From a virus: a stretch of 64,000 nucleotides of DNA. Location of the stretch: IMG/VR virus record IMGVR_UViG_3300043496_000205, positions 4,253 to 68,252 of that record, one strand, 5' to 3'. Positions within the stretch are counted from its first letter, which is position 1; the number at the start of each line of letters is the position of its first letter. The notes under the pieces are model-generated. The model was not told the DNA's origin. It did no database searches and saw only the letters and a program-made list of their open reading frames with translations. The position numbers and the translations under genes are program-made. Of this stretch, positions 58,837 through 59,403 are shown in pieces.

Positions 58837-59403
58837 TTAGTGAATTTCAAATGGGCTGCGATCAACCATGCCCTTGATCCAGGCTGGCTCCTTGCCTCTG
58901 CCGGACCAGGTTGTCCCCGTGGCCGGGTCGCGGTACTTGGCCTTCGCCTTGGTACCCTTGCGGCGCAGCTTGAGGCCACCCAGGGCTTCGACGAGTTCCT
59001 CGATCGGCACATCGTATTCCTTCACGACATTGACGATCTGCTCGATGACAGAGGCACGCTGAGCCTTCTGCTTTTCCTGGATCCGACGATCCAATTCAGC
59101 CTGCTGAGCCTTAAGCTGTTCGATGCTCAGCTCTGCAAGATCCTGCAGCTTGGCCTGTTCAGCTGGCATTGGGACAGGCCGGGTCGTGCTGCCATGTCCA
59201 AGATTTAGATTTTCCATTTCTTTATCCTCTGTGGAATTATCAGAAATGGGATCTGCTGCTTCCTGTTCCAAGTCATCAGGATTAACTTCTTCCTCCACCC
59301 GTTTTGCACGGGAGCGTCCCTTCTTGAGGAACTGGGGGATGTCGGCGTCGTCCTTGTCGAATGCCAGGCGCTGAGTGGTAGCTTCTGCCACATCTTCACT
59401 CAT
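58837..59403 (-). CDS. hns: H-NS family nucleoid-associated protein with acidic N-terminal extension
   Basis: Coiled-coil LSIEQLKAQQAELDRRIQEK..RASVIEQI...V.EY....EEL plus DNA-binding KYRDPATGTTWSGRGKEPAWI; AGGAG RBS. Confidence 0.92.
   Translation of the reverse strand: MSEDVAEATTQRLAFDKDDADIPQFLKKGRSRAKRVEEEVNPDDLEQEAADPISDNSTEDKEMENLNLGHGSTTRPVPMPAEQAKLQDLAELSIEQLKAQQAELDRRIQEKQKAQRASVIEQIVNVVKEYDVPIEELVEALGGLKLRRKGTKAKAKYRDPATGTTWSGRGKEPAWIKGMVDRSPFEIH

What the first reader, a model, noticed from the sequence alone, without database searches (positions are those of the whole stretch)
59215..59403. FtsZ C-terminal-peptide mimic on the phage H-NS, with a possible second in-frame start
Seen: the ~62-aa acidic extension contains FDKDDADIPQFLKKGR (DIPQFLKK at 59343-59320). 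A second ATG at 59217 has its own GAGGA RBS and would give a shorter H-NS without it. Established: the conserved FtsZ tail (E. coli DIPAFLRK; alphaproteobacterial LEIPAFLRR) is the docking peptide for FtsA, ZipA, MinC, SlmA and ClpXP. Inference: the long isoform could tether H-NS-coated phage DNA to FtsA or the membrane/divisome, or titrate FtsZ partners to block division. That would be a minimal phage nucleoid-positioning or division-inhibition device, tuned by the isoform ratio.
Basis: partly seen in the sequence, partly recalled or inferred. Interest (0 to 1): 0.8.

Follow-up and report, generated by a model that had tools for sequence, protein, structure and literature searches.

The report
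Phage H-NS carrying FtsZ-tail look-alike
A soil N4-like phage makes an H-NS-type DNA-coating protein whose floppy N-terminal tail carries a conserved copy of the short peptide that the bacterial division protein FtsZ uses to dock onto its partners, so the phage may plug its DNA-bound protein into, or jam, the host division machinery; this is untested.

Summary
ORF 58837..59403 (-) is a 188-aa H-NS-family protein of a complete 77.6-kb N4-like soil phage. Residues 1-81 are predicted disordered and acidic. DIPQFLKK sits at 59343-59320, and an internal ATG (Met63, 59217-59215) follows a GAGGA.

The motif is not chance. [DE][IV]PxFL[RK][RK] is present in 37 of the homologues retrieved, with P, F and L invariant. 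It lies on both sides of the deepest split of the family tree. Its pN/pS (0.31) is close to that of the folded core (0.27).

It matches the FtsZ tail. A Mesorhizobium that carries an integrated relative has FtsZ ending LEIPAFLRRQAN, and FtsZ is the only in-frame match to the strict pattern in that 6.5-Mb genome. The window clade's rare Q/KK variant also occurs in real FtsZ tails (EIPQFFKKPV) of uncultured soil Alphaproteobacteria.

Binding to FtsA, MinC or any other partner is inferred, not shown.

The second start is weakly supported and confined to the closest clade.

A second tag in the tail (TQRLAF) resembles the C-terminal tip of the phage's own SSB, so the tail looks like a multi-tag docking arm.

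No paper in the library describes such a phage mimic. The scan has flagged FtsZ-tail look-alikes on other DNA before.

The parts
58837..59403 (-). H-NS-family gene (188 aa, P0001) of an N4-like phage. It lies immediately upstream of the Dda/RecD-like helicase gene (57384..58706 -).
   Evidence: ORF list and translation. Pfam PF00816. PHROG 10171. Same H-NS-then-helicase order in Agrobacterium phage OLIVR1, Ochrobactrum phage ZX86 and a Mesorhizobium integrated element.
59410..59414 (-). Shine-Dalgarno AGGAG of the first start (ATG 59403-59401), 6-nt spacer.
   Evidence: Sequence. An equivalent GGAG core precedes the same start in five relatives.
59356..59376 (-). Motif A, T10-Q-R-L-A-F-D16: a tag of the form T-x-R-L-x-F.
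   Evidence: A regex for this motif class matches within the first 45 residues of 100 of 122 homologues. F15 and D16 are nearly invariant among the 37 aligned. Related tags lie at the C-terminal tip of the phage SSB and in the RusA-like tail.
59320..59343 (-). Motif B, D21-I-P-Q-F-L-K-K28: look-alike of the FtsZ conserved C-terminal peptide.
   Evidence: P23, F25, L26 invariant in 37 sequences. FtsZ tails. HMM and shuffle test. Whole-genome pattern test. Short helix 24-26 in the AF2 model.
59146..59319 (-). Acidic, variable, predicted-disordered linker (residues 29-86).
   Evidence: pLDDT about 44-59. Net charge -7. Length and sequence vary among homologues. pN/pS 0.63.
59215..59229 (-). Candidate internal start: GAGGA (59229-59225), 7-nt spacer, ATG (59217-59215) = Met63.
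   Evidence: Met kept in the 9 closest homologues. GGAG/GAGG kept in 6 of 7 DNAs but not in P0007. Absent in more distant homologues.
58984..59160 (-). Helical oligomerisation region of the H-NS core (residues 82-140).
   Evidence: AF2 helices 82-90, 94-130 and 134-140, pLDDT 80-92. This is the best conserved block in the alignment.
58840..58941 (-). H-NS C-terminal DNA-binding domain (residues 155-188, with the W-S-G-R-G-K-E-P-x-W-I core).
   Evidence: Pfam PF00816 on residues 155-178. Invariant columns.

Best explanation
The gene encodes an H-NS-family DNA-binding protein of an N4-like soil phage. It has three parts: a C-terminal H-NS DNA-binding domain, a helical oligomerisation region, and an 81-residue acidic disordered N-terminal arm. 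The arm carries two short linear motifs. Motif B ([DE][IV]PxFL[RK][RK], here DIPQFLKK) copies the conserved C-terminal peptide of FtsZ. The architecture mirrors FtsZ: an oligomerising body, a flexible linker and a docking peptide. The most likely mechanism has three steps. (1) The protein oligomerises on DNA and so displays many copies of the peptide. (2) This multivalent array binds the host proteins that normally read the FtsZ tail. In an alphaproteobacterial host these are chiefly FtsA (subdomain 2B) and possibly MinC. (3) Binding either competes with FtsZ for its membrane tether and regulators, which delays or blocks division during infection, or tethers H-NS-coated DNA to FtsA at the membrane. 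Competition is my preferred reading. Shown here: the gene, its architecture, the motif, its conservation and selection, and its specificity for FtsZ in a host genome. Inferred: binding to FtsA or MinC and the effect on division. Motif A (T-x-R-L-x-F) is a separate tag that resembles the tip of the phage's own SSB, so the arm probably docks to a second hub as well.
For: H-NS identity and phage context.

Motif B conservation: present in 37 homologues down to about 40% identity, with P, F and L invariant while the flanks vary. It is found on both sides of the deepest, 100/99-supported split of the core tree. pN/pS is 0.31 for the motif region, against 0.63 for the linker and 0.27 for the core.

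Match to FtsZ tails: Mesorhizobium FtsZ ends DDDQLEIPAFLRRQAN, and the same chromosome carries an integrated N4-like element whose H-NS has SVPAFLRK. 52 Pseudomonadota FtsZ tails give the consensus [DE][IV]P[ATSR]FLR[RK] preceded by acidic residues. Motif-bearing homologues score up to 16.3 bits against that HMM and P0001 scores 6.2 bits (0.065% of shuffles reach it). Homologues without the motif score at most 2.9 bits.

Specificity: the strict pattern occurs in frame only in FtsZ in the 6.5-Mb Mesorhizobium genome.

The window clade's rare variant (Q at x, KK) occurs in natural FtsZ tails..EIP[QK]FFKKPV, of uncultured soil Alphaproteobacteria.

FtsA and MinC are present in the identified host genome.

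The arm is predicted disordered, with a short helix starting just after the proline, as in the FtsZ peptide (PMC4835091 for the FtsZ helix).

Literature: the FtsZ tail docks FtsA, ZipA, MinC, SlmA, ClpX and ZapD (PMC4835091). Its partners bind single peptides weakly and polymers strongly by avidity (bioRxiv 10.1101/2025.05.07.652675, citing Du et al. 2015). Fragments of the FtsZ C-terminus inhibit E. coli growth (PMC10769210).

An unrelated viral protein family has an invariant IPxFLRR after a hypervariable linker.
Against: No binding or phenotype data exist.

The window's own peptide differs from the canonical alphaproteobacterial tail at three positions (Q for A, KK for RR). It scores only 6.2 bits against the broad FtsZ-tail HMM and 2.6 bits against an alphaproteobacteria-only HMM.

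The host of this phage is unknown. The MAGs with EIPQFFKK FtsZ tails contain no relative of the protein.

The motif has been lost in many lineages of the family, including a 51-member clade, so it is dispensable.

The peptide is internal and N-proximal rather than C-terminal. In Thermotoga FtsA the extreme C-terminal residue of FtsZ contributes a salt bridge (PMC4835091).

The same arm carries a tag shared with the phage's replication proteins, so motif B could be another replication-type docking tag.
Confidence: 0.5

Rival explanations
1. Motif B is a docking tag for a replication, recombination or transcription hub of the phage or host, like motif A. Its likeness to the FtsZ tail would then be convergent, or it would share only the general acidic-hydrophobic-basic form of such tags, as in the SSB tip D-D-D-I-P-F.
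For: The gene sits in the replication module next to the helicase and DNA polymerase genes. The same arm carries T-x-R-L-x-F, related to the tip of the phage SSB (..KTPSLFSGN) and to a tag in the RusA-like resolvase tail. An earlier follow-up in this scan read a PAFLRK-type tail on phage replication proteins as a shared, fast-changing docking tag (e1-3278468). Other carriers found in IMG/VR look like DNA-binding proteins, for example one with an HTH domain.
Against: Motif B is found in no other protein of this phage. It is stable, not fast-changing: P, F and L are invariant across the family. It matches FtsZ in seven positions, including the Leu and the dibasic pair that the SSB tip lacks. The SSB tip also needs a free C-terminal Phe, by established knowledge of SSB-Ct binding. 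In a host genome the pattern is unique to FtsZ.
Confidence: 0.25
2. Two isoforms are made. A long form starts at ATG 59403 and carries the arm. A short form starts at Met63 (ATG 59217) and lacks both tags. Their ratio tunes how much H-NS is tagged. This is compatible with the main explanation and is rated separately.
For: GAGGA lies 7 nt before the ATG. Met is kept in the 9 closest homologues. A GGAG or GAGG core is kept in 6 of 7 DNAs by two different codon solutions (ACA GAG GAT and ACG GAG AAT). The Glu codon is always GAG, although GAG is the minor Glu codon in the window gene (6 GAG against 16 GAA).
Against: The SD-like core coincides with a conserved peptide block (S-T-E-[ND]), so protein-level selection can explain it. 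P0007 keeps the Met but not the core. The other 28 motif-bearing homologues have no Met there. The sequences are related, so the counts are not independent. No expression data exist.
Confidence: 0.2
3. The motif is a protease recognition signal. ClpXP or ClpAP recognises the FtsZ C-terminus, and the motif would time the removal of the phage H-NS.
For: ClpX is listed among the readers of the FtsZ tail (PMC4835091), and the motif lies in a disordered, accessible arm.
Against: This is a special case of the mimic idea rather than an alternative. An internal N-proximal position is unusual for such signals. Nothing here bears on stability.
Confidence: 0.07
4. Chance resemblance: the arm is only an acidic spacer or DNA-mimicking auto-inhibitor of the H-NS domain, and the motif has no partner.
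For: Many family members lack motif B, and acidic tails on DNA-binding proteins often act electrostatically.
Against: P, F and L are invariant across 37 diverged sequences, pN/pS equals that of the core, and the match to the FtsZ-tail HMM is significant.
Confidence: 0.04

Closest known systems
FtsZ conserved C-terminal peptide (CCTP/CTC), e.g. E. coli D-I-P-A-F-L-R-K and alphaproteobacterial L-E-I-P-A-F-L-R-R-Q-A-N
   Same: Same core [DE][IV]PxFL[RK][RK]. Acidic residues precede it. It sits at the end of a long disordered linker attached to an oligomerising body. A short helix is predicted to begin just after the proline.
   Different: It sits near the N-terminus of an H-NS DNA-binding protein, not at the C-terminus of a tubulin homologue. 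More sequence follows it. The window variant has Q and KK, a combination seen here only in FtsZ of some uncultured soil Alphaproteobacteria (with FF in place of FL).
Phage and prophage cell-division inhibitors (lambda Kil, T7 Gp0.4, P1 Icd, Rac/Qin DicB)
   Same: The supposed outcome is the same: interference with Z-ring function during phage development.
   Different: Those are small proteins that act on FtsZ itself, or on MinC in the case of DicB (PMC3961180, PMC11897509; DicB from general knowledge). None is described as copying the FtsZ tail or as a DNA-binding protein.
Nucleoid-occlusion factor SlmA (and Noc)
   Same: A DNA-bound protein that couples DNA to the division machinery through the FtsZ tail interaction (PMC4117426).
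   Different: SlmA binds the FtsZ tail. The phage protein displays a tail copy, so it would engage the tail's readers rather than FtsZ.
Phage-encoded H-NS homologues (Agrobacterium phage OLIVR1 gp69, EBPR podovirus gp43, Burkholderia phage BCSR5 H-NS)
   Same: Same H-NS core and, for OLIVR1 and ZX86, the same place in an N4-like genome. They also have an acidic N-terminal arm with a motif-A-type tag.
   Different: OLIVR1 gp69 and ZX86_53 lack motif B. No function is established for any of them.
C-terminal docking tips of SSB proteins, and beta-clamp-binding motifs (Q-L-[SD]-L-F; UmuD T-F-P-L-F, from memory)
   Same: Motif A (T-x-R-L-x-F, or T-[QK]-S-L-F in OLIVR1 and ZX86) resembles the tip of this phage's SSB (K-T-P-S-L-F-S-G-N) and the two length classes of clamp-binding motifs.
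   Different: The first position is Thr, not Gln. No binding was tested. This concerns motif A, not the FtsZ-like motif.

Membership tests
H-NS family (Pfam PF00816 Histone_HNS) | C-terminal DNA-binding domain with the conserved T-W-[ST]-G-[RQ]-G-x-x-P-x-W core | tested here: met
   PF00816 hit at E 2.9e-10, 40.2 bits against a cut-off of 25.6. W166-S-G-R-G-K-E-P173 and W175-I176 are invariant in 37 homologues.
H-NS family (Pfam PF00816 Histone_HNS) | Helical N-terminal or central oligomerisation region preceding a flexible link to the DNA-binding domain | tested here: met
   AF2 model has helices 82-90, 94-130 and 134-140 at pLDDT 80-92. The oligomeric state itself was not tested.
H-NS family (Pfam PF00816 Histone_HNS) | Binding and bridging or silencing of AT-rich DNA | not testable with these tools
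   Needs EMSA, ChIP or a reporter assay.
FtsZ-tail (CCTP) type docking peptide | Sequence [DE]-[IV]-P-x-F-[LIM]-[RK]-[RKN] with an acidic lead-in | tested here: met
   DADIPQFLKK. Family consensus. FtsZ tails. HMM scores and shuffles.
FtsZ-tail (CCTP) type docking peptide | Located in or after an intrinsically disordered linker, with a short helix starting at the conserved proline | tested here: met
   Residues 1-81 have low pLDDT, with a local rise to 69 at residues 21-30 and helix 24-26, which starts just after P23. The FtsZ peptide is described in PMC4835091.
FtsZ-tail (CCTP) type docking peptide | Located at the extreme C-terminus of the carrier | tested here: not met
   The motif is at residues 21-28 of 188. 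FtsZ tails themselves are followed by 2 to about 12 variable residues.
FtsZ-tail (CCTP) type docking peptide | Binds FtsA, MinC, ZipA, SlmA, ZapD or ClpX | not testable with these tools
   The single complex-prediction job gave no verdict (see Tried and rejected). Binding assays are needed.
Gene with an internal alternative translation start | In-frame ATG with a Shine-Dalgarno sequence at proper spacing | tested here: met
   GAGGA, then 7 nt, then ATG at 59217.
Gene with an internal alternative translation start | Start and SD conserved beyond what the protein sequence requires | tested here: inconclusive
   Kept in the close clade (9 of 9 Met; 6 of 7 SD-like cores). It is confounded with the conserved T-E-[ND] block and absent in 28 more distant homologues.
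Gene with an internal alternative translation start | Two protein products observed | not testable with these tools
   No RNA or ribosome data exist for this metagenomic phage.

The most novel reading that the evidence does not exclude
Copying the FtsZ docking tail is a recurrent strategy of phages of Alphaproteobacteria and other bacteria. Unrelated DNA-associated phage proteins would each display it on a disordered arm, to hook phage nucleoprotein onto FtsA or MinC or to out-compete FtsZ by avidity. The carriers seen here are this H-NS family, a roughly 160-aa coiled-coil family with an invariant IPxFLRR, an HTH protein and others. The copy would track the host's own tail variant, as with DIPQFLKK in this clade against EIPQFFKK in some soil Alphaproteobacteria. 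In this H-NS the tail would be combined with a second tag, shared with the phage SSB, that links the same protein to the replisome.
Probability: 0.35. Interest if true: 0.85.

Novelty: new variant of a known kind. Interest (0 to 1): 0.66.

Why it matters
Phages are known to stop host division with small proteins that attack FtsZ. A DNA-coating protein that instead imitates the FtsZ tail would be a different principle: short-linear-motif mimicry of a bacterial hub peptide, made potent by oligomerisation on DNA. Such mimicry is a hallmark of eukaryotic viruses and is hardly documented for phages.

It would also give phage-encoded H-NS proteins, whose roles are largely unknown, a concrete and testable function.

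It offers a natural competitor peptide for the FtsZ-FtsA/MinC interface, which is an antibiotic target.

The Mesorhizobium strain with an integrated relative provides a culturable system in which the idea can be tested directly.

Tried and rejected
(1) Complex prediction of Mesorhizobium FtsA (residues 14-405) with the arm (alignment A2): score 0.00, verdict 'no answer', controls not run. This is neither support nor evidence against.

(2) Sequencing-run search: the phage DNA is held by soil metagenome runs from several studies, and no RNA holder is listed. It says nothing on expression or on the second start.

(3) Profile of the arm against 1.84 billion representatives: only 7 H-NS homologues plus P0121. 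P0121 is an 864-aa translation of a tandem DNA repeat (16 copies of ..PSFLRKQE..) and was rejected as an artefact. The arm is therefore not a module found on other domain types at detectable similarity.

(4) Megablast of 8 kb of the window against isolated phages: no match. tblastn shows that the nearest isolates (Rhizobium, Sinorhizobium and Erwinia N4-like phages) are only about 55% identical in the helicase.

(5) The alphaproteobacteria-only FtsZ-tail HMM gave the window protein only 2.6 bits. I replaced it with a broader 52-tail model.

(6) Host identification. The five MAGs with EIPQFFKK FtsZ tails hold no relative of P0001. Relatives of their FtsZ tails carry no organism names. GC content is compatible but not informative: phage 55%, MAG loci 61-64%, and for comparison the Mesorhizobium element 58% against 65% for its host locus.

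(7) The second in-genome pattern hit in Mesorhizobium (EVPKFLRR) is out of frame with the only ORF there and was rejected.

(8) The B-like hit at 44471 (-) (HVPEFIRR) lies in a minus-strand frame in a region where another first-reader note places the plus-strand vRNAP gene. I did not check this, and I set the hit aside as probably antisense.

(9) Membrane-targeting helix idea: rejected, because the motif has only three hydrophobic residues.

(10) Locus L050 comes from an unpublished genome (G041) and was left out.

Full report
WHAT IS THERE

The window belongs to a complete 77,620-bp virus record with direct terminal repeats. Gene order and protein matches place it among N4-like podoviruses (Schitoviridae-like). 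The gene in question is followed by a Dda/RecD-like helicase gene, as in Agrobacterium phage OLIVR1 (gp69-gp70) and Ochrobactrum phage ZX86. The nearest isolated phages are only about 55% identical in the helicase. The DNA is found in soil metagenomes from several studies.

The ORF 58837..59403 (-) encodes 188 residues. Residues 155-178 match the Pfam H-NS DNA-binding domain (E 2.9e-10). An AlphaFold2 model built on 37 homologues has confident helices at 82-140 and a DNA-binding domain. Residues 1-81 are of low confidence, apart from a small rise and a three-residue helix at 24-26.

CHECK OF THE OBSERVATION

- DIPQFLKK is at 59343-59320.
- The internal ATG is at 59217-59215. It is Met63, so the extension is 62 residues with net charge -10.
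- GAGGA lies 7 nt upstream of that ATG.
- The first ATG has a stronger AGGAG 6 nt upstream, and this is conserved in relatives.
- The region upstream of Met63 is conserved as protein. The long form is therefore real and is the primary product.

IS THE MOTIF MORE THAN CHANCE?

Of the homologues retrieved from 5.8 billion proteins, all 37 that align over most of the query carry [DE][IV]PxFL[RK][RK] at residues 8-47. Many read exactly IPAFLRK or IPAFLRR. In their alignment P23, F25 and L26 are invariant, while the surrounding arm varies in sequence and length.

On a tree of the H-NS cores the window's clade (12 of 13 members with the motif) is sister to all the others with 100/99 support. The motif recurs in many lineages of the other side. 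It is therefore old, and it has been lost repeatedly, notably in a 51-member clade.

Among seven close DNA sequences pN/pS is 0.31 for residues 9-30, 0.63 for the linker and 0.27 for the folded core.

IS IT LIKE THE FtsZ TAIL?

One homologue (P0023) lies in an N4-like element integrated in a complete Mesorhizobium chromosome. That genome's FtsZ ends DDDQLEIPAFLRRQAN. It also has FtsA and MinC.

A degenerate DNA pattern for the strict motif finds only two places in that 6.5-Mb genome. One is FtsZ. The other is out of frame with the only ORF there. The reversed control pattern finds three places.

FtsZ tails from 52 sampled Pseudomonadota give the consensus acidic stretch plus [DE][IV]P[ATSR]FLR[RK]. 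An HMM of these tails scores:
- motif-bearing homologues up to 16.3 bits;
- the window protein 6.2 bits, reached by 0.065% of 20,000 shuffles;
- homologues without the motif at most 2.9 bits.

The window clade consistently has Q at the variable position and K-K in place of R-R. A scan of 185,579 species' genomes for that variant returned mostly chance hits. It also returned five uncultured soil Alphaproteobacteria whose FtsZ ends [IL]EIPQFFKKPV(S). Tail-based relatives of these FtsZ proteins read EIP[QK]FFKKPVS. The window's variant therefore resembles natural FtsZ tails in its two rare features. I could not link those MAGs to the phage.

WHAT THE LITERATURE SAYS

The FtsZ conserved C-terminal peptide is the dock for FtsA, ZipA, MinC, SlmA, ClpX and ZapD, and it forms a helix starting at the conserved proline (PMC4835091). 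Its readers bind the isolated peptide weakly and FtsZ polymers strongly through avidity (bioRxiv 10.1101/2025.05.07.652675, discussing Du et al. 2015). Fragments covering the FtsZ C-terminus inhibit E. coli growth (PMC10769210).

Searches for a phage protein that copies this peptide, for the string IPAFLR outside FtsZ, and for H-NS in N4-like phages found nothing relevant. Known phage inhibitors (Kil, Icd) act on FtsZ itself (PMC3961180, PMC11897509).

MECHANISM

The protein has the logic of FtsZ turned round: docking peptide, flexible acidic linker, oligomerising body. The body binds DNA. I therefore think it most likely (about 0.5) that DNA-bound oligomers present a multivalent array of tail copies to the host's tail readers, with FtsA first and MinC possibly. 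That would either compete with FtsZ and disturb division, or fasten coated DNA to the membrane-bound FtsA. Everything after 'present' is inference.

The main rival (0.25) is that motif B is a docking tag for a replication-type hub.
- Evidence for the rival: the same arm carries motif A.
- Evidence against the rival: motif B occurs nowhere else in this phage, it is stable rather than fast-changing, and it matches the Leu and dibasic positions that are specific to FtsZ.

MOTIF A

T-x-R-L-x-F (here T10-QRLAF-D16, 59376-59356) belongs to a motif class that a regex finds in the first 45 residues of 100 of 122 homologues, including those without motif B. OLIVR1 and ZX86 have T-[QK]-S-L-F-A-G-N instead.

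In this phage the N4-type SSB (49406..50170 -, PHROG 743, E 2.7e-72) ends ..KTPSLFSGN. The RusA-like resolvase (48515..49405 -) has ..SKSLFSNL.. in its disordered tail. SSB tips of related elements read KTPSLFNS and KTTSLFGA.

Motif A thus looks like a tag shared among the phage's DNA-metabolism proteins. Its two length forms (S-L-F and L-x-F) recall the penta- and hexapeptide beta-clamp-binding motifs. That comparison is from memory and was not tested.

SECOND START

Met63 is kept in the nine closest homologues. A GGAG or GAGG core lies 8-10 nt upstream in six of seven DNAs, achieved by two codon solutions and always with the GAG Glu codon. P0007 lacks it.

The core overlaps a conserved peptide block (S-T-E-[ND]). 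The sequences are related, so the counts are not independent. The 28 more distant motif-bearing homologues have no Met there. I rate a functional internal start at about 0.2, limited to this clade.

BEYOND THIS FAMILY

A scan of IMG/VR for [DE][DE]IPAFL followed by an Arg- or Ser-class codon (MGN) gave 22 DNA hits, against roughly 10 expected by chance (my estimate). Several lie in frame in long ORFs within Pro/Ala/acid-rich stretches:
- a 155-172-aa coiled-coil family;
- a 312-aa protein with an HTH domain;
- a 406-aa PHROG-27714 protein with two copies;
- a 226-aa protein that ends with the motif.

In the first family five diverged members keep I-P-x-F-L-R-R invariant after a hypervariable linker.

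The scan's earlier notes list further FtsZ-tail look-alikes on other DNA: a giant soil phage, an IncA/C plasmid protein and a WYL-controlled small protein. One case was reinterpreted as a replication docking tag. I did not re-test those.

VERDICT

The functional reading is plausible but unproven. The isoform idea is weak. I class it as a new variant of a known kind: a phage H-NS homologue and a presumed division or divisome interferer that would act by mimicry of a hub peptide.

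Noticed in passing
window 59356-59376 (-); 49409-49435 (-); 48554-48568 (-): A second tag of the form [ST]-x-[SR]-L-(x)-F is shared by three proteins of this phage. It appears as TQRLAF in the H-NS N-terminus, as KTPSLFSGN at the very C-terminus of the N4-type SSB, and as SKSLFSNL in the disordered tail of the RusA-like resolvase. A regex for this motif class matches the first 45 residues of 100 of 122 H-NS homologues. It looks like a shared docking tag, possibly similar to a beta-clamp-binding motif.
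   Followed up: partly
L003 (Mesorhizobium chromosome CP034450.1, 1846464-1867078); L012 (IMG/VR provirus): N4-like replication modules (H-NS, helicase, DNA polymerase A, primase-like, SSB) sit inside a complete Mesorhizobium chromosome next to ordinary bacterial genes, and IMG/VR classes a related record as a provirus. N4-like phages are generally regarded as strictly lytic.
   Followed up: no
L228-L234 (alignment A3); L089/L106; L091; L093: Unrelated viral proteins carry [DE][DE]IPAFLRR in disordered stretches. One family of 155-172 aa keeps I-P-x-F-L-R-R invariant after a hypervariable Pro-rich linker and before a conserved basic C-terminal block. Another carrier has an HTH domain, and another ends with the motif.
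   Followed up: partly
L172, L182, L163, L174, L212; P0122-P0127: A lineage of uncultured soil Alphaproteobacteria has FtsZ tails ending [IL]EIP[QK]FFKKPV(S) instead of the usual EIPAFLRRQAN. It shares the Q and KK of the window clade's motif.
   Followed up: partly
window residues 52-66 of P0001 (about 59206-59250, -): A conserved island P-I-S-x-D-N-[SP]-T-E-[ND]-x-[ED]-M-[ED]-N lies inside the otherwise variable linker of the closest clade. The Mesorhizobium-type clade has instead a conserved R-E-P-G-D block shortly after motif B. Both are unexplained.
   Followed up: no
L005 (Mesorhizobium G001:C1:6297586-6300870): A second, shorter FtsZ-like ORF in the Mesorhizobium genome ends without linker or tail peptide.
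   Followed up: no
P0121: An 864-aa 'protein' in the public collection is the translation of a tandem DNA repeat and contains 16 copies of ..LPSFLRKQEPS... Such artefacts can contaminate searches for FtsZ-tail look-alikes.
   Followed up: yes
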